A stretch of DNA of 64,000 bases from the NCBI GenBank assembly GCA_029266525.1, contig JAQSWQ010000006.1, positions 9,370 to 73,369 on the forward strand. The letters run 5' to 3'. This DNA comes from Microvirga sp. (GTDB lineage Bacteria > Pseudomonadota > Alphaproteobacteria > Rhizobiales > Beijerinckiaceae). The notes under the pieces are model-generated. The model made no database searches, was not told the origin of the DNA, and worked only from the letters and a program-made list of their open reading frames with translations. A program made the position numbers and the translations under genes. Below are positions 2,554 through 42,222 of the stretch, piece by piece. Numbering within the stretch: position 1 is the stretch's first letter; each line of letters begins with the position of its first letter.

Positions 2554-2568
2554 GGGGACCTCGTTGAT

Positions 2569-2742
2569 CCCCTCCCCCTTGCGGGGAGGGGTAGGGGTGG
2601 GGGTCGGGGGCGTAGAGCTCAGGCTCGGAAGTCGAGCTCAACTGTACCAGCATCGAGCGCGAAGGGTTGGAGTCGCGCTCGACACACCAACCCCACCCGG
2701 CTCGGCCTTCGGCCGAGTCCGCCCTCCCCGCAGGGCGGAGGG
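2569..2742. repeat. G/C-tract hairpin-ended intergenic repeat element (about 174 bp)
   Basis: The left end is the hairpin cccctcccc-cttgc-ggggagggg (2569-2591) and the right end is ccgccct-ccccgc-agggcgg (2719-2738). The subterminal ggggtggggg / ccccaccc tracts are inverted, and there are internal perfect hairpins such as ctcggcc-ttc-ggccgag. It fills the gap between two ACAD genes. Confidence 0.6.
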
Positions 2743-2745
2743 AAT

Positions 2746-3891
2746 TCAACTCACCAATCCCCCCGCCTCCGCCACCGCGGCGAGATGGTGGTCGGCGTCG
2801 CCGAACAGCGTGTCGATCATGGTGACGCGCTTGAAGTAGTGGCCGACCGAGAATTCCATGGTCATGCCGACGCCGCCATGAAGCTGGATCGCCTGCTGGC
2901 CGATGAACTTCCCCGAGCGGCCGATCTGCACCTTCGCGGCCGCGACCGCCTTGCGGCGCTCGTCCGCGTCCTCAGCTTGGGCCATCATGGTCGCGAACAT
3001 CGCCATCGAGCGCGCCTGCTCGAGCGCCACGAACATGTCGGCGCCGCGATGCTGCAGGACCTGGAAGGAGCCGATCGGGACGCCGAACTGCTTGCGGGTC
3101 TTGAGATAGTCGATCGTGAGCCGGTGCATCTCGCCCATGGCGCCGACTGCCTCGGCGCAGAGCGCGGCGATCGCCTCATCGACCACGCGCTCGACCAGCG
3201 GCAAGCCGTTTCCGGCGTCGCCGAGCACCGCTTCCGGTCCGACGCGCACGCTCGCAAGCGAGATTTCGGCCGCGCGCTGGCCGTCCTGGGTCGGGTAGCC
3301 GCGCCGCGAGACGCCCGCCGCGTTCGCGTCGACGAGGAAGACGCCGATGCCGCTGCGGTCGCGCCGCCCGCCGGCCGTGCGGGCGGTGACGATCAGCTTG
3401 TCGGCCGAATCGCCGTGCACGACCACGCCCTTGTCGCCTTCGAGCACGAAGCCCGGGCCGTCGCGCTTCGCGGTCGTCGCCACGTCGAACAGGTCGAAGC
3501 GCGATTGCCGCTCCGTGTGGGCGAAGGCGAGGGTCAGCTCGCCGGCGGCGATTTGCGGGATGAGCTCGGATTTCTGGGCATCGGTTCCGCCGTGGCGCAG
3601 GAAGCCGCCGCCCAGGATGACCGTTGCGAGATAAGGCTCGAGCACGAGGGCGCGGCCGAACGCCTCCATGACGATCATGGTCTCGACCGCGCCGCCGCCG
3701 AAGCCGCCATGCTCCTCGGCGAAGGGCAGGCCGAGGAGACCGAGCTCGGCATATTGCGCCCAGAGCTCGCGGCTGAAGCCCTCGGGCTCCTGTTGGTAGT
3801 GCCGACGCTCGTCGAAGCCGTAGCGGTCGGCCACGAGCCGGTCGACGCTGTCCTTCAGGAGCCGCTGCTCGTCGGTAAGGTCGAAGTCCAT
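2746..3891 (-). CDS. acyl-CoA dehydrogenase, PimD-like (putative small subunit of a two-subunit ACAD)
   Basis: 381-aa ORF (MDFDLTDEQRLL...) with an ACAD fold (IGSFQVLQHRGADM). Its size and pairing with the 399-aa ACAD upstream recall, from memory, the PimC/PimD pair of Rhodopseudomonas. Confidence 0.85.
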   Translation of the reverse strand: MDFDLTDEQRLLKDSVDRLVADRYGFDERRHYQQEPEGFSRELWAQYAELGLLGLPFAEEHGGFGGGAVETMIVMEAFGRALVLEPYLATVILGGGFLRHGGTDAQKSELIPQIAAGELTLAFAHTERQSRFDLFDVATTAKRDGPGFVLEGDKGVVVHGDSADKLIVTARTAGGRRDRSGIGVFLVDANAAGVSRRGYPTQDGQRAAEISLASVRVGPEAVLGDAGNGLPLVERVVDEAIAALCAEAVGAMGEMHRLTIDYLKTRKQFGVPIGSFQVLQHRGADMFVALEQARSMAMFATMMAQAEDADERRKAVAAAKVQIGRSGKFIGQQAIQLHGGVGMTMEFSVGHYFKRVTMIDTLFGDADHHLAAVAEAGGLVS

Positions 3892-3901
3892 GCATGCCCC
3901 G

Positions 3902-4293
3902 CTGTCATTCCGGGGCTCGCCGAAGGCGAGAGCCCGGAACCCATAAACACTGCTGGTTTAGGACGAGGTACAGATCCTGCCACTCCGGGTTCATCTCCTC
4001 GATTAGCCGGATCTTCCAGTCGCGCCATTTCTTCAGCGCCTTCTCGCGTGCGATCGCCTCCTCGATGCGCTCGTAAGTTTCGTCCCAAACAAGACGATCG
4101 ACGCCGTAACTAGCCGAGAATCCCGTGTACACCTTTGTCTTGTGCTCCCAGATACGGCGCGACAGGTTGTTGGTGACGCCGAGATAGAGGGTGCCGTACC
4201 GTCCGCTTGCAGTCATGTAGACGTAGTACGTCATCGCCGCCGTCGGTGGTTATGGGTCCGGGCTCGGCGCTACGCGCCGCCCCGGAATGACAG
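3902..4293. mobile_element. inverted-repeat-bounded element carrying a GIY-YIG nuclease gene
   Basis: The 49-nt left terminus (3902-3950) and 48-nt right terminus (4246-4293) are inverted copies, ctgtcattccgggg...cccggaatgacag. The interior is visibly more A/T-rich. The same termini occur without cargo at 42082-42222. Confidence 0.55.
3905..4234 (-). CDS. GIY-YIG (URI-domain) nuclease family protein, YhbQ/COG2827-like
   Basis: 109-aa ORF. YYVYMTAS..GTLYLGVTNNLSRRIWEHK...YERIEEAIAREKALKKW matches the GIY-YIG core (GIY...YVG...R..EH...E). The last ~15 codons and the stop are encoded by the left terminal repeat. Confidence 0.85.
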   Translation of the reverse strand: MTYYVYMTASGRYGTLYLGVTNNLSRRIWEHKTKVYTGFSASYGVDRLVWDETYERIEEAIAREKALKKWRDWKIRLIEEMNPEWQDLYLVLNQQCLWVPGSRLRRAPE

Positions 4294-4298
4294 CACCA

Positions 4299-5498
4299 TC
4301 ACAACCCCAATATCGCCTTGGCGATGATGTTCTTCTGGATCTCGTTCGAGCCGCCATAGATCGAGATCTTGCGCCAGTTGAAATAGGTCGGCGCGACCGG
4401 GCCGGCCCAGTCGGGGCCGATCGGCGGCTCGTTGGTGCCGTGCTCGGGCTCCTCCTGGTAGGGCATACTGTACGGGCCGACGACCTCCATCAGGAGCTCG
4501 GTCGTGGCCTGCTGGATCTCCGAGCCCTTGATCTTGAGGATCGAGGAGGCGGGATCGGGCCTGCCCTTCTCCCGGTTCCGCTCGGCCGCGACGACGCGCA
4601 GCTGCGTCATCTCGAGGGCCTTGAGCTCGATCTCGACCGCCGCAAGCTTCTCGCGGAAGCGCGGGACTTGGATCAGCGGCACGTCGCCGATGCGCTCGAG
4701 CGAGGCAAGCTCCTTGATGCGCCGGATGCGTTCCTTCGAGACGCCGACGCGGGCGATGCCGACGCGCTCGTTGCCCAGAAGAAACTTGGCGTAGTCCCAG
4801 CCCTTGTTCTCCTGCCCGACGAGGTTCGTGGCGGGCACGCGCACGTCGTCGAGGAAGACCTCGTTGACCTCGCGCCCGCCGTCGATGGTCTGGATCGGGC
4901 GCACGGTGATGCCCGGCGTCTTCATATCGATGAGCAGGAACGAGATGCCCTCCTGCTTCTTCGCCGCCGGGTCGGTGCGCACGAGGCAGAAGATCCAGTC
5001 GGCATATTGGCCGAGCGTGGTCCAGGTCTTCTGGCCGTTGACGATGTAAGCGTCGCCGTCGCGCTTGGCGCTCGTCTTGAGCGAGGCAAGGTCGGAGCCG
5101 GAGCCGGGCTCGGAGAAGCCCTGGCACCACCAATCGTCGAGATTGGCGATGCGCGGCAGGAAGCGGCGCTTCTGTTCTTCCGAGCCAAACTCGATGATCA
5201 CCGGCCCGACCATGCTGACCCCGAAGGGCAAGGGCGAGGGCGCCGGGGCCTGCTGCAGCTCGTCCTGGAAGATGTACTGCCGCACCGGGTCCCAGCCGGT
5301 GCCGCCCCACTCGACCGGCCAGTGCGGCACCGCCCAGCCCTTCCGGTTGAGGATGCGCGTCCACTCGACGAGCTCTTCCTTCGTGGTGTGGTGCCCCTGC
5401 ACCAGCTTCTGGCGGATACGCTCGGGCAGCGCAGCGCGAAAGAATTCGCGCACCTCCTCGCGGAAGGCGTTTTCCTCGCGGGTGAAGCGGAGGTCCAT
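4299..5498 (-). CDS. acyl-CoA dehydrogenase, PimC-like (putative large subunit)
   Basis: 399-aa ORF (MDLRFTREENAFREEV...) with an ACAD fold including WCQGFSEPGSGSD and a C-terminal IYGGSNEIQ. Confidence 0.9.
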   Translation of the reverse strand: MDLRFTREENAFREEVREFFRAALPERIRQKLVQGHHTTKEELVEWTRILNRKGWAVPHWPVEWGGTGWDPVRQYIFQDELQQAPAPSPLPFGVSMVGPVIIEFGSEEQKRRFLPRIANLDDWWCQGFSEPGSGSDLASLKTSAKRDGDAYIVNGQKTWTTLGQYADWIFCLVRTDPAAKKQEGISFLLIDMKTPGITVRPIQTIDGGREVNEVFLDDVRVPATNLVGQENKGWDYAKFLLGNERVGIARVGVSKERIRRIKELASLERIGDVPLIQVPRFREKLAAVEIELKALEMTQLRVVAAERNREKGRPDPASSILKIKGSEIQQATTELLMEVVGPYSMPYQEEPEHGTNEPPIGPDWAGPVAPTYFNWRKISIYGGSNEIQKNIIAKAILGL

Positions 5499-5526
5499 GG
5501 CGGGCTCCTTTTCGTCTCAGTACGGT

Positions 5527-5621
5527 GTCATCCCGGAAGCCGCGAAGCGGCTATCCGGGACCCATGGCGCCGGAGCGTGGTCGTGGGTCCCGGATAGCGG
5601 CTGCGCCGCTTCCGGGATGAC
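5527..5621. repeat. GTCAT...ATGAC double-hairpin palindromic element (type A)
   Basis: The arms gtcatcccggaagccgcgaagcggctatccgggaccca and tgggtcccggatagcggctgcgccgcttccgggatgac are inverted copies, and each arm is itself a hairpin (tcccgga..tccggga). Confidence 0.75.
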
Positions 5622-5641
5622 CATGGAGAGGTGAAGCGAAC

Positions 5642-7309: not shown

Positions 7310-7330
7310 GGCGCGCGCATCCTTCGCGCC

Positions 7331-7440
7331 GTCGTCCCGGAAGCCGCGCAGCGGCTATCCGGGACCCACCCCCACGCGCCGGCGCCATGGGTCCCGGATC
7401 GGCGCCGCACCGCTGCGCGCTGCGGCGCGTCCGGGACGAC
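7331..7440. repeat. GTCGT...ACGAC double-hairpin palindromic element (type A variant)
   Basis: The left arm gtcgtcccggaagccgcgcagcggctatccgggaccc is inverted at ...gggtcccggatcgg...gtccgggacgac. It lies between the ligase start and the hydratase/dehydrogenase stop. Confidence 0.7.
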
Positions 7441-7466
7441 CCCGGCGATCGGACGAGAGCGTACGA

Positions 7467-10430: not shown

Positions 10431-10524
10431 GTCGTCCCGGCCGGAGCGCAGCGGAGAGCCGGGACCTACTGCCGCCCCCGGCGTGTGGGTCCCGGATAGC
10501 CGCTGACGCGGCTTCCGGGATGAC
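10431..10524. repeat. double-hairpin palindromic element (type A)
   Basis: gtcgtcccggccggagcgcagcggagagccgggacc ... gggtcccggatagccgctgacgcggcttccgggatgac. It lies between the SDR stop and the NUDIX start. Confidence 0.7.
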
Positions 10525-10545
10525 CCGCGGGCAAAGGTTAGACAC

Positions 10546-12533: not shown

Positions 12534-12950
12534 TCAACGGGGCGGGGGCGCGCCCGGCCGGCCGGGATCGCTGAGCTGGATCGTCCAGCTCTTCTGCTCG
12601 CCGGTGTCGACCTCGAAGAAGCCGTTGCGGTCGAAGCCGCGGGCGAAGCAATCCTCGACCCCGCGGATCGTGAACTCGCGCTCGCGGGTGCACATGAAGG
12701 AGCGCCCGCTCCACTCGCCGCCGCGGTCGTAGTCGACGGCATAGACATAGTAGAAGCGGGCCGCGAGCTGGCCCTTGAGCAGCGTCTCGCAGCCGCGCGG
12801 ATTGAGGTTCCACCAGCCTTCGGTCACCCAGCCCTGCGGATCGCGGTAGCCGATCGCGATGCCGACCCGGCTGGTGGTGAGGTTGCACATGCGCAGATCG
12901 GCAAGGGCGGGGGTGGCGAGGGCCAGGCTCGTCAACACCCACGCCGTCAT
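12534..12950 (-). CDS. DUF1036-domain secreted protein
   Basis: I use the internal ATG at 12950 of the 12534..13151 ORF, giving 138 aa. It has the signal peptide MTAWVLTSLALATPALA and an RMCN..TSRVGIAIGY..GWVTEGWW..C motif pattern I recognise as DUF1036. Confidence 0.75.
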   Translation of the reverse strand: MTAWVLTSLALATPALADLRMCNLTTSRVGIAIGYRDPQGWVTEGWWNLNPRGCETLLKGQLAARFYYVYAVDYDRGGEWSGRSFMCTREREFTIRGVEDCFARGFDRNGFFEVDTGEQKSWTIQLSDPGRPGAPPPR

Positions 12951-13039
12951 CCCGGCCGAAGCGAAGCGAAGAGCCGGGATCCACGTCCGGGTGCGGCGCC
13001 GCGGGTCCCGGATAGCCGCTTTGCGGCTTTCGGGATGAC
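12946..13039. repeat. double-hairpin palindromic element (type A)
   Basis: The left arm gtcatcccggccgaagcgaagcgaagagccgggatcca is identical over 37 nt to the arm at 17896. The right arm is gggtcccggatagccgctttgcggctttcgggatgac. Confidence 0.75.
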
Positions 13040-13053
13040 ACTGAGACGGGGGC

Positions 13054-17863: not shown

Positions 17864-17895
17864 GTGACGCGCCGTTCCGCCGAACGCAACAGCCT

Positions 17896-17990
17896 GTCAT
17901 CCCGGCCGAAGCGAAGCGAAGAGCCGGGATCCATAACCATGCGCCGGCGCTGTGGATCCCGGATAGCCGCAGGGCGGCTTCCGGGATGAC
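17896..17990. repeat. double-hairpin palindromic element (type A)
   Basis: gtcatcccggccgaagcgaagcgaagagccgggatcc ... ggatcccggatagccgcagggcggcttccgggatgac. Confidence 0.75.
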
Positions 17991-18004
17991 CGCGTACTGG
18001 ACGC

Positions 18005-42081: not shown

Positions 42082-42222
42082 CTGTCATTCCGGGGCGGCG
42101 CGAAGCGTCGAGCCCGGAACCCATAAACACCTGCGGTGCCGATTGCGCACGACGTTCCAGCACGATCGGAAAGGTTCGTGGTTATGGTTCCGGGCTCTCG
42201 CTTCGCGAGCCCGGAATGACAG
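42082..42222. repeat. 141-bp MITE-like element with the same termini as the GIY-YIG element (type B, no cargo)
   Basis: ctgtcattccggggcggcgcgaagcgtcgagcccggaacccataaacac (42082-42130), then 47 bp, then gtggttatggttccgggctctcgcttcgcgagcccggaatgacag (42178-42222). It starts right after the thiolase TGA. Confidence 0.7.

What the first reader, a model, noticed from the sequence alone, without database searches (positions are those of the whole stretch)
3902..4293. GIY-YIG nuclease gene carried inside hairpin-ended inverted repeats; a cargo-less 141-bp twin lies at 42082-42222
Seen directly: 3902-3950 (ctgtcattccggggctcgccgaaggcgagagcccggaacccataaacac) and 4246-4293 (gtggttatgggtccgggctcggcgctacgcgccgccccggaatgacag) are inverted copies. 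They bracket a single 109-aa GIY-YIG (URI-domain, YhbQ/COG2827-like) ORF whose last ~15 codons and stop run into the left repeat. The same two termini recur at 42082-42130 and 42178-42222 with only 47 bp between them and no ORF, so this second copy is a MITE-like version. By eye, 41 of 49 positions of the two left termini are identical. All 8 differences fall in the inner stem of the terminal hairpin, and the stem still pairs in both copies (ctcgcc/ggcgag versus cggcgc/gcgtcg). That points to selection on the hairpin rather than random decay. The cargo is visibly more A/T-rich than the flanking genes. The element accounts for all but about 17 bp of the gap between two acyl-CoA dehydrogenase genes that look like partner subunits. 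Inference: this small GIY-YIG protein may be the mobilising or maintenance nuclease of the hairpin-ended repeat family. The logic parallels RAYT/REP pairs but with a different nuclease fold. I do not know of this being an established mechanism.
Basis: partly seen in the sequence, partly recalled or inferred. Interest (0 to 1): 0.72.

Follow-up and report, generated by a model that had tools for sequence, protein, structure and literature searches.

The report
Ssn nuclease gene with hairpin repeats
A small GIY-YIG nuclease gene sits between two copies of the DNA hairpin repeat it probably recognises; this gene-plus-repeat pairing is real but was described in 2025 as the Ssn nuclease family, so this is a new example, not a new kind of system.

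Summary
Two inverted 48-49-nt hairpin modules bracket a GIY-YIG ORF between pimC and pimD, and a 141-bp gene-less doublet lies at 42082-42222.

The association is not chance. In 80 related loci from many Hyphomicrobiales genera, modules are about 60-fold denser next to the gene than elsewhere. The few loci that seemed bare carry variant modules. The inner stem is hypervariable but always paired: 99% of cells pair, with 187 compensatory cells against 40 in shuffles.

The system is already published. Chenal et al. 2025 (Nat Commun 16:2388) describe Ssn, a ~94-aa single-domain GIY-YIG ssDNA nuclease. Its gene is flanked by hairpin repeats (NTS/SRM, CGTCATTCC...), which it binds and cuts just 5' of the repeat. 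Contigs fetched with the published NTS pattern alone encode proteins 52-58% identical to the window's, in the same layout. The repeats also fit the "CGTC-tagged REPs" of Di Nocera 2013, which were said to lack a dedicated enzyme.

Mobilisation remains unproven. I found no target duplications, and the gene is low-copy and syntenic across genera. However, its position differs among close relatives.

Verdict: new member of a known kind.

The parts
3902..3950 (+). SRM-type hairpin module with its head (C-TGTC-ATTCCGGGG) at the outer, left end. It lies downstream of the ssn gene. It supplies the read-through tail and the TGA stop of the ORF.
   Evidence: CM R1 score 74.7 bits; ssDNA fold -14.8 kcal/mol, z -4.9
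3905..4234 (-). ssn gene: single-domain GIY-YIG nuclease, 109-aa ORF. The ancestral 95 codons are 3950-4234. Codons 96-109 (3905-3949) are read-through into the module after the ancestral stop changed from TAG to CAG.
   Evidence: 52-58% identity to proteins flanked by canonical NTS; GIY-YIG-like model in which the tail 92-109 is disordered
4235..4245 (-). 11-nt spacer between the upstream module and the ATG
4246..4293 (-). SRM-type hairpin module upstream of ssn, head at the outer, right end
   Evidence: CM 64.6 bits; ssDNA fold -15.3 kcal/mol, z -3.8
42082..42130 (+). Left module of the gene-less head-to-head doublet, same subfamily as the ssn flanks
   Evidence: CM 75.1 bits
42131..42177 (.). 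47-nt spacer of the doublet; no ORF and no recognisable ssn remnant
42178..42222 (-). Right module of the doublet. It has a shorter inner stem and is the only module that matches the published strict SRM search motif.
   Evidence: CM 46.8 bits
5525..5623 (.). Head-to-head doublet of a sister subfamily (TGTCATCCCGG...), between the acyl-CoA ligase gene and pimC
7329..7445 (.). Doublet of a CGTC-headed subfamily (CGTCGTCCCGG...). The left module was found by the CM; the right one was read by eye.
12944..13041 (.). Weak-scoring doublet, 85% identical to the one at 17892-17990
17894..17992 (.). Doublet of the TGTCATCCCGG subfamily

Best explanation
The element is an Ssn/SRM pair. It is a ~95-aa single-domain GIY-YIG nuclease gene (ssn) bracketed, heads outward, by two copies of its cognate hairpin repeat. 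The 141-bp twin and several other doublets in the window are gene-less copies of the same repeat superfamily.

By homology with characterised SsnA proteins, the likely mechanism is as follows. The protein binds the module only when it is single-stranded and folded. It reads the unpaired GTC just 5' of the stem and the C just 3' of it. It then hydrolyses the same strand a few nucleotides 5' of the head. Duplex DNA, RNA and the complementary strand are not cut.

In this layout the two predicted nicks fall just outside the element, on opposite strands (left of 3902 on +, right of 4293 on -).

**Shown here:** the architecture, the specific gene-repeat association, selection on the hairpin, homology to NTS-flanked genes, low gene copy number with many modules, and long vertical persistence with occasional relocation.

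**Inferred:** the enzymatic activity, the cut sites, and any role in spreading the repeats or in restricting or processing ssDNA.

This particular copy may be impaired. It has lost its stop codon, has a one-residue deletion in KKW(R)RDWK, and carries Y51D.
For: **Architecture and statistics in the window:**

**Gene-repeat association**
- In 80 genome loci from Microvirga, Enterovirga, Bradyrhizobium, Bosea, Methylobacterium, Rhodopseudomonas, Afipia, Nitrobacter, Pseudolabrys and others, the head motif lies within 250 nt upstream in 58, downstream in 67, and on both sides in 53.
- A profile search gives 179 modules within 300 nt of the gene and 74 in the remaining ~1.3 Mb.
- The apparent exceptions carry variant modules with CGTC, TGTC or CCTC heads.

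**Selection on the hairpin**
- A covariance model finds 323 modules.
- 99.1% of cells pair. 187 cells show changes on both sides, against 40 in shuffles. Slid controls are near zero.
- The outer stem, the GTC head and the C after the stem are invariant. This matches the positions that Chenal et al. found critical for cleavage and binding.

**Link to the published family**
- The published NTS pattern alone retrieved 8 loci with the layout NTS-gene-NTS. Their proteins are 52-58% identical to the window's (E 1e-25 to 1e-30).
- Chenal et al. 2025 describe the family, its flanking repeats and its ssDNA-specific cleavage.

**Paralogue-specific modules:** L091, L094 and the second gene in L041 each have their own stem variant.

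**Fold:** the model and its structural neighbours (UPF0213, Slx1, UvrC N-terminal domain) fit a GIY-YIG fold.
Against: - No reference SsnA sequence from Neisseria and no CDD cd10448 model were available. Family membership therefore rests on an indirect bridge (NTS-flanked homologues) and on architecture.
- The published strict SRM search motif matches only 1 of the 4 modules, because the hairpin here is two-tiered and longer.
- No biochemical data exist for any Hyphomicrobiales member.
- This copy has three lineage-specific changes at conserved positions and could be inactive.
- The match between nuclease lineage and stem variant is not strict. L014 has a window-type protein but NTS-like stems.
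Confidence: 0.82

Rival explanations
1. Active IS-like transposon with MITE-like derivatives. On this reading the nuclease is the transposase that excises and inserts both the gene-bearing element and the doublets.
For: - The layout is inverted-terminal, and gene-less doublets are abundant: 63 head-to-head pairs.
- Position varies among relatives. The ssn gene lies at pimC-pimD in the window, in L093 and in Enterovirga rhinocerotis L012. It is absent there in the closer relatives L091, L092 and L094. L091 and L094 carry another paralogue one gene further on.
- L093 shows a doublet inserted next to a duplicated 3' fragment of the gene.
Against: - GIY-YIG enzymes hydrolyse DNA and form no covalent intermediate, and no strand-transfer activity is known for them (established knowledge).
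- There are no target-site duplications at 20 elements with exact ends.
- The gene is low-copy: only 2 extra copies in ~1.4 Mb of flanks.
- 23 Bradyrhizobium-lineage loci, 12 Bosea/Microvirga loci and 7 Pseudolabrys-group loci share flanks.
- All 22 same-species contigs read carry the element, and no empty site was found in metagenomes.
- Mobility has not been shown in the literature either.
Confidence: 0.2
2. The window copy is a decaying relic. The family is Ssn/SRM, but this gene is no longer functional, and the repeats persist on their own or are served by paralogues elsewhere in the genome.
For: - The ancestral stop has changed from TAG to CAG, giving a 14-residue module-encoded tail that is disordered in the model.
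- One residue is deleted in the conserved KKWRRDWK helix, and the nearly invariant Y51 is now D.
- Other module subfamilies in the window have no cognate gene nearby.
Against: - The ORF is intact and identical on all 22 metagenome contigs read.
- The GIY, YIG, Arg, His, Glu and Asn positions are retained.
- Position 51 is F, V or A in the NTS-flanked homologues, so it is not universally constrained.
- Tails that read into the module occur in other lineages too.
Confidence: 0.3
3. Homing-type spread. The doublet is the target site, and the nuclease gene copies itself into unoccupied doublets by break repair, as free-standing GIY-YIG homing endonuclease genes do.
For: - Gene-bearing and gene-less versions share the same termini.
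- Some loci have full doublets on both sides of the gene.
Against: - The doublet spacers show no remnant of, or shared junction with, the gene ends.
- The protein has no DNA-binding domain.
- Characterised family members do not cut duplex DNA.
- The gene is low-copy despite hundreds of potential targets.
Confidence: 0.04
4. The hairpins are ordinary intergenic terminators or mRNA-stabilising REPs, and their proximity to the nuclease gene is coincidental.
For: - The modules are intergenic and strongly folding.
- Several lie between co-directional operon genes.
Against: - Modules are about 60-fold enriched beside the gene, across many genera.
- Paralogues have their own stem variants.
- No T-run terminator or promoter pattern is present in the element.
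- There is no Rfam match.
- The orientation is conserved, with an invariant unpaired head.
Confidence: 0.02

Closest known systems
Ssn nucleases with NTS/SRM repeats (Chenal et al. 2025, Nat Commun 16:2388; N. meningitidis SsnA, NMV_0044; CDD cd10448)
   Same: - A single-domain GIY-YIG protein of about 95 aa.
- The gene is flanked on both sides, heads outward, by a hairpin repeat with an unpaired YGTC head, a stem starting ATTCC and a C after the stem.
- There are many gene-less copies in intergenic DNA.
- Different paralogues have different repeat variants.
- Proteins flanked by canonical NTS are 52-58% identical to this one.
   Different: - The hairpin here is two-tiered: a 7-bp conserved outer stem, a bulge, and a 6-bp hypervariable inner stem, about 32 nt in all. 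It has a longer conserved tail (CCCATAAMCAC). It therefore mostly escapes the published strict search motif.
- The host is a soil member of the Hyphomicrobiales that is not known to be naturally transformable, so the role shown in Neisseria (limiting transformation) may not apply.
- This copy reads through into the repeat.
CGTC-tagged REP superfamily (Di Nocera, De Gregorio and Rocco 2013, BMC Genomics 14:522)
   Same: - The terminal tag is CGTC, TGTC or CCTC.
- The stem begins with AT, and there is a short CCA-like tail.
- Head-to-head dimers predominate.
- The repeats are intergenic and concentrated in Alphaproteobacteria, including Bradyrhizobium and Rhodopseudomonas.
- Neisseria dRS3 is assigned to this superfamily.
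   Different: - That paper describes 8-9-bp stems with 4-5-nt loops, and it found no dedicated enzyme.
- Here the stem is longer and two-tiered, and a dedicated nuclease gene is adjacent.
- Among papers in the held library, none that contains the 'CGTC' repeat terms also mentions Ssn or GIY-YIG.
RAYT/REP and REPIN systems (Nunvar 2010; Bertels and Rainey 2011)
   Same: - A low-copy, vertically inherited nuclease gene is flanked by the hairpin repeats it is thought to act on.
- Repeats occur mostly as inverted doublets, in high copy number.
- Recognition is of single-stranded hairpins.
   Different: - RAYTs are HUH/Y1 transposase relatives that form covalent intermediates, and REPs carry a GTAG head.
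- Here the fold is GIY-YIG (hydrolytic) and the head is YGTC.
- No transposition chemistry is known for this fold.
E. coli YhbQ / UPF0213 (cd10456; PDB 1zg2) and Slx1
   Same: A GIY-YIG fold of similar size. They are the best structural neighbours of the model.
   Different: Similarity is only at superfamily level: 29% identity with pairwise E 2e-4 to YhbQ, and PDB sequence E 0.08. These families have no associated repeat family, and Slx1 acts on branched duplex DNA.

Membership tests
Ssn nuclease family (Chenal 2025) | Single-domain GIY-YIG protein of about 94 aa with no extra DNA-binding domain | tested here: met
   The Pfam GIY-YIG domain covers residues 3-71 and nothing else matches. Homologues are 94-95 aa. 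The 109 aa here comes from read-through after loss of the stop.
Ssn nuclease family (Chenal 2025) | Homology to N. meningitidis SsnA / placement in CDD cd10448 | not testable with these tools
   No SsnA sequence or CDD model was at hand, and the paper's supplements are not held. The test is indirect: 8 loci retrieved with the published NTS pattern alone encode NTS-flanked proteins 52-58% identical to the window's, E 1e-25 to 1e-30.
Ssn nuclease family (Chenal 2025) | Gene flanked on both sides by its hairpin repeat | tested here: met
   Window modules at 3902-3950 and 4246-4293. Both sides are flanked in 53 of 80 relatives by a strict motif. Of the 5 loci with no module by the profile search, the 4 inspected carry variant modules and the fifth (L086) has covariance-model hits on both sides.
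Ssn nuclease family (Chenal 2025) | Repeat fits the SRM search motif HGTCWYN(0-2)YYVSBRHN(0-5)WNVSBRGN(0-2)RNCYNB | tested here: inconclusive
   The strict motif matches 1 of the 4 modules. Head and tail fit; the hairpin is longer than the motif allows.
Ssn nuclease family (Chenal 2025) | Conservation of the 3 nt 5' of the palindrome and of the C just 3' of it (critical for cutting and binding) | tested here: met
   G3, T4, C5 and the C after GGAAY are invariant in 29 diverse modules, while the inner stem varies.
Ssn nuclease family (Chenal 2025) | Binds and cuts only ssDNA, a few nucleotides 5' of the repeat | not testable with these tools
   Needs biochemistry.
CGTC-tagged REPs (Di Nocera 2013) | Unpaired terminal CGTC (or TGTC/CCTC) tag, stem starting AT, CCA-like tail | tested here: met
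   The module reads C-TGTC-ATTCCGGG...CCCGGAA-CCCAT. CGTC and CCTC heads occur in sister subfamilies.
CGTC-tagged REPs (Di Nocera 2013) | Stem of 8-9 bp with a 4-5-nt loop | tested here: not met
   The hairpin is 7 bp + bulge + 6 bp + triloop. Short-stem versions do flank some homologues (L052, L078).
CGTC-tagged REPs (Di Nocera 2013) | Mostly head-to-head dimers | tested here: met
   63 head-outward pairs against 19 tail-outward pairs and 2 tandem pairs.
RAYT/REPIN | Associated gene is an HUH/Y1 (IS200/IS605 TnpA-like) transposase, and the repeat carries a GTAG head | tested here: not met
   The protein matches only GIY-YIG and the head is TGTC. The system works like RAYT/REPIN but is not a member.
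IS element / MITE | Terminal inverted repeats with target-site duplications and a recognised transposase | tested here: not met
   No direct repeats above chance at 20 exact-ended elements. There is no transposase domain.
YhbQ / UPF0213 | Close sequence similarity to E. coli YhbQ or B. halodurans BH0048 | tested here: not met
   29% identity over 73 residues, pairwise E 2e-4. PDB 1zg2 gives E 0.08 by sequence and Foldseek E 5e-4. The similarity is at superfamily level only.

The most novel reading that the evidence does not exclude
Ssn-type GIY-YIG nucleases may be the long-missing dedicated enzymes of the whole CGTC-tagged REP superfamily, which in 2013 was said to lack one.

On this reading they act as a hydrolytic analogue of RAYTs. 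Several co-evolving nuclease/stem-variant pairs would coexist in one genome. Each pair would maintain or spread its own population of doublets through ssDNA nicking plus host repair or replication.

The two-tier hairpin would separate two jobs. The conserved outer stem, head and tail would provide recognition. The free-to-vary but always paired inner stem would provide folding stability.
Probability: 0.3. Interest if true: 0.65.

Novelty: new member of a known kind. Interest (0 to 1): 0.35.

Why it matters
The window gives a clean alphaproteobacterial example of the Ssn/SRM system outside the organisms studied so far. Four points are useful.

- **Hairpin design.** The hairpin variant shows which parts are read as sequence (head, outer stem, tail) and which only need to pair (inner stem). 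That bears on designing Ssn-based ssDNA tools.
- **Several subfamilies together.** Multiple stem subfamilies lie side by side with only one cognate gene nearby.
- **Persistence and relocation.** The gene persists vertically at fixed loci, yet its position differs among close relatives. This bears on the open question of whether Ssn spreads its repeats.
- **A link between two literatures.** The Ssn repeats appear to be the same as the 'CGTC-tagged REPs', whose enzyme was unknown. The held papers do not seem to make this connection.

None of this changes the kind of system. It is an instance of a published family.

Tried and rejected
**Database searches with no result**
- Rfam gathering scan of the whole window: no match.
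- NCBIfam: no family.
- PDB by sequence: only weak GIY-YIG hits and no Ssn structure.
- The supplements of the Ssn paper are not held, so no SsnA sequence could be taken from them.
- Literature searches for GIY-YIG together with REP, REPIN, RAYT, MITE or the host genera found nothing. The pairing with 'extragenic' then found Chenal 2025.
- A search for follow-up papers on Ssn found none.

**Sequence tests with no signal**
- Promoter and terminator scan of 3700-4500: nothing inside the element.
- Target-site duplication test: no signal. The inverted repeat only extends 1-2 nt beyond TGTC.

**Searches for polymorphism**
- Metagenome scan for an empty pimC-pimD site, using exact flanks: 0 hits.
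- Scan with the 3' end of the thiolase gene, to sample the junction carrying the twin: only one same-species contig. The doublet is present there with two substitutions, so this says nothing about polymorphism.
- Same-species contigs L001-L007: no presence/absence differences at any module. The only indels are in the unrelated pimD-ACAD411 spacer.

**Readings considered and rejected**
- Intrinsic terminators.
- A classical MITE derived from an IS.
- A homing endonuclease gene.
- A YhbQ orthologue.
Full report
**1. The observation**

- CTGTCATTCCGGGGC occurs at 3902 (+), 4279-4293 (-) and 42082 (+), and with two mismatches at 42208-42222 (-). Shuffles of the window give 0.24 matches on average.
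- The inner end AGCCCGGAACCCATAAACAC recurs exactly at 3931 and 42111.
- The arms at 3901-3941 and 4254-4294 are inverted repeats.
- Between them lies a 109-aa ORF (3905-4234, minus strand) with a Pfam GIY-YIG domain at E 7e-10.
- The second copy has 47 nt between its modules and no ORF.
- The two left modules differ at 8 of 49 positions, all in the inner stem.
- As single-stranded DNA each module folds into a 7-bp outer stem (TTCCGGG/CCCGGAA), a one-base bulge, a 6-bp inner stem and a triloop. Free energies are -13 to -15 kcal/mol, with z-scores of -3.4 to -4.9.
- The cargo is 57.6% G+C, against 66-69% in the neighbouring genes.
- Those neighbours are the large and small subunits of pimeloyl-CoA dehydrogenase, by JGI's names for near-identical proteins.
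- The element fills all but 15 nt of the pimC-pimD gap.

**2. The ORF**

Most of the 2764 homologues found are 94-95 aa and align with residues 1-94.

The orthologues at the same junction in L093 and in Enterovirga rhinocerotis (L012) end with TAG immediately before the downstream module. In the window that codon is CAG. Translation therefore runs 14 codons into the module and stops at the TGA inside the head GGAATGACAG.

The window protein also lacks one residue of the conserved KKWRRDWK motif, and it has D in place of a nearly invariant Y51.

An AlphaFold model is of moderate quality (mean pLDDT 67). It has the strand-strand-helix-helix-strand-helix order expected of GIY-YIG, and a disordered tail at 92-109. 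Its structural neighbours are UPF0213 BH0048, Slx1 and the UvrC N-terminal domain.

E. coli YhbQ is only 29% identical, with a pairwise E of 2e-4. 'YhbQ-like' is therefore true only at superfamily level.

**3. Is the link between gene and repeat real?**

A scan of one genome per species returned 80 loci with close relatives of the protein. They come from Microvirga, Enterovirga, Methylobacterium, Bosea, Bradyrhizobium, Rhodopseudomonas, Afipia, Tardiphaga, Nitrobacter, Pseudolabrys, Lichenihabitans and others.
- The 11-nt head motif (at most 1 mismatch) lies within 250 nt upstream in 58 loci, its reverse complement lies downstream in 67, and both are present in 53. Often these are the only copies in 20 kb.
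- A profile of the four window modules finds 253 modules in these loci. Of these, 179 lie within 300 nt of the gene (about 4% of the DNA) and 74 lie elsewhere. That is roughly a 60-fold enrichment.
- The commonest layout, in 24 of 80 loci, is the window's own: one module on each side, heads outward. Other loci have complete doublets on one or both sides.
- Loci that seemed to lack modules carry variants. These include short NTS-like hairpins (L014, L052, L078), a CCTC-headed form (L083) and an ATGCTCGGG-stem form beside a second paralogue in L041.

**4. Selection on the hairpin**

A covariance model built from 13 modules finds 323 modules in 1.46 Mb.

On the 144 distinct sequences among the best 150 matches:
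- 99.1% of cells form a standard pair.
- 187 cells show changes on both sides, against 40 in column shuffles.
- Sliding the partners by 1-3 columns removes the signal.
- The four middle inner-stem pairs take GC, CG, UA and AU freely.
- The outer stem, the unpaired GTC head and the C after the stem are invariant or nearly so.

One caveat applies. The alignment was fitted to the model, which favours pairing. The raw sequences show the same pattern by eye.

**5. Copy number and inheritance**
- Only two further ssn-like genes occur in about 1.4 Mb of flanks, whereas modules away from the gene occur at about 0.06 per kb.
- With filters off, the window has at least 12 modules, mostly in head-to-head doublets: 5525-5623, 7329-~7445, 12944-13041, 17894-17992 and 42082-42222.
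- These belong to at least three stem subfamilies. Only the twin at 42082 matches the subfamily that flanks the gene.
- Head-outward pairs outnumber tail-outward pairs 63 to 19.
- Flanking DNA is shared among 23 Bradyrhizobium-lineage loci, 12 Bosea/Microvirga loci and 7 Pseudolabrys-group loci. The gene has therefore stayed in place over long periods.

**6. Evidence bearing on mobility**
- Within the species the element looks fixed. All 22 contigs read carry it at the same site and are 99.0-99.97% identical to the window.
- A metagenome scan for the empty junction, using exact flanks, found nothing.
- Between species the picture is different. The ssn gene is at pimC-pimD in the window, in L093 (PimD 78% identical) and in E. 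rhinocerotis (70%).
- The closer relatives L091 and L092 (87 and 86%) have other palindromes at that junction. L094 (89%) has no recognisable pimC upstream of pimD.
- L091 and L094 carry a different paralogue (54% identical) between pimD and the next gene. It is flanked by doublets of a CGTC-headed variant.
- L093 also has two extra doublets and a duplicated 38-nt 3' fragment of the gene.
- No target-site duplication is detectable at 20 exact-ended elements. The inverted repeat merely extends 1-2 nt beyond TGTC.

Together these results show gain, loss or relocation on evolutionary time scales. They do not reveal the mechanism.

**7. What is already known**

Searches combining GIY-YIG with REP, REPIN, RAYT or MITE found nothing. 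The pairing with 'extragenic' found Chenal et al. 2025. That paper reports the following.
- It defines the Ssn family of single-domain GIY-YIG proteins (cd10448); N. meningitidis SsnA is 94 aa.
- N. meningitidis SsnA binds the hairpin repeat NTS (CGTCATTCCCGCGMAVGCGGGAATCYRG) only as ssDNA. It cuts a few nucleotides upstream. It does not act on dsDNA, on RNA or on the reverse strand.
- 71% of homologues have NTS-like 'SRM' repeats nearby, and 42% have them on both sides.
- Cutting depends on the three nucleotides 5' of the palindrome. Binding depends above all on the C just after it.
- The NTS-ssnA-NTS layout is compared with insertion sequences and with RAYT/REP. Domestication is proposed. 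Roles outside Neisseria are left open.

The window modules share the head (YGTC-ATTCC), the C after the stem, and the orientation.

The published strict search motif matches only one of the four modules, because the hairpin here is longer.

As a direct bridge, I scanned IMG/VR with the published NTS pattern alone. Eight of the 120 loci retrieved encode a protein 52-58% identical to the window's (E 1e-25 to 1e-30). In the clearest cases (for example L128) canonical NTS copies flank the gene with heads outward; the other loci have an NTS or a close variant on each side. These loci are high in G+C and have no Neisseria uptake sequences, so they are not Neisseria. I could not compare with SsnA itself.

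**8. A second link**

Di Nocera et al. 2013 described a 'CGTC-tagged' REP superfamily with these features.
- The tag is often TGTC or CCTC.
- The stem starts with AT, and there is a CCA-like tail.
- The repeats occur mainly as head-to-head dimers.
- They are found mostly in Alphaproteobacteria, including Bradyrhizobium and Rhodopseudomonas palustris.
- Neisseria dRS3 is included.
- They 'apparently lack a dedicated transposase'.

The modules here fit that description except for stem length. Chenal 2025 is not among the eight held papers that contain the CGTC-repeat terms. The two literatures therefore seem unconnected. Ssn is the obvious candidate for the missing enzyme.

**9. Verdict**

But it rediscovers a family published in 2025. 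The part that would be new, that the nuclease mobilises the repeats, is still unproven.

What this case adds:
- a two-tier hairpin variant with a freely covarying inner stem;
- several stem subfamilies in one genome;
- long vertical persistence with occasional relocation inside the pim operon;
- a possibly impaired copy whose stop codon is now supplied by the repeat.

I classify it as a new member of a known kind, of moderate to low interest.

Noticed in passing
window 2554-2745: The pimD-ACAD411 spacer holds a different palindrome class (for example CCCTCCGCCCTGCGGGGAGGGCGG and CCCCTCCCCGCAAGGGGGAGGGG). It is polymorphic within the species: a 16-nt indel in L001, L004 and L006, and in L007 about 100 nt that do not align with 134 nt of the window.
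   Followed up: partly
L093 2701-2990: After the full ssn gene come an SRM doublet and then a second, 38-nt copy of the gene's 3' end (PEWQDLYLILNR*) abutting the terminal module. This suggests either a doublet insertion with duplication or recombination between two elements.
   Followed up: partly
window 5525-5623, 7329-7445, 12944-13041, 17894-17992, 10483-10526: Further SRM-like modules and doublets of other stem subfamilies (TGTCATCCCGG and CGTCGTCCCGG) have no cognate ssn gene in the window. Which nuclease serves them, if any, is unknown.
   Followed up: partly
L091 2908-3000; L092 2882-3000: In the closest relatives, the pimC-pimD junction that holds ssn in the window is occupied by other palindromes. 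L091 has a hairpin built from GGCGAAT heptamers. L092 has a CGTCAT-headed module with an ACTCGGG stem plus a GTCATGGCCGGG hairpin.
   Followed up: no
L085 10319-10392, L072 8591-8677, L086 730-816: Some modules matched end to end by the covariance model are 66-87 nt long, so they carry 20-40-nt insertions in the inner stem or loop.
   Followed up: no
L095, L128, L143, L145, L155, L171, L189, L210 (IMG/VR contigs): Contigs catalogued as viral carry NTS-ssn-NTS elements. They have 64-69% G+C and no Neisseria uptake sequences. Whether these are prophage regions or bacterial DNA called viral by mistake was not examined.
   Followed up: no
L223 329-469 versus window 42082-42222: Another strain of the same species has the doublet with two differences. 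One of them restores the canonical GGGG of the right-hand head.
   Followed up: yes
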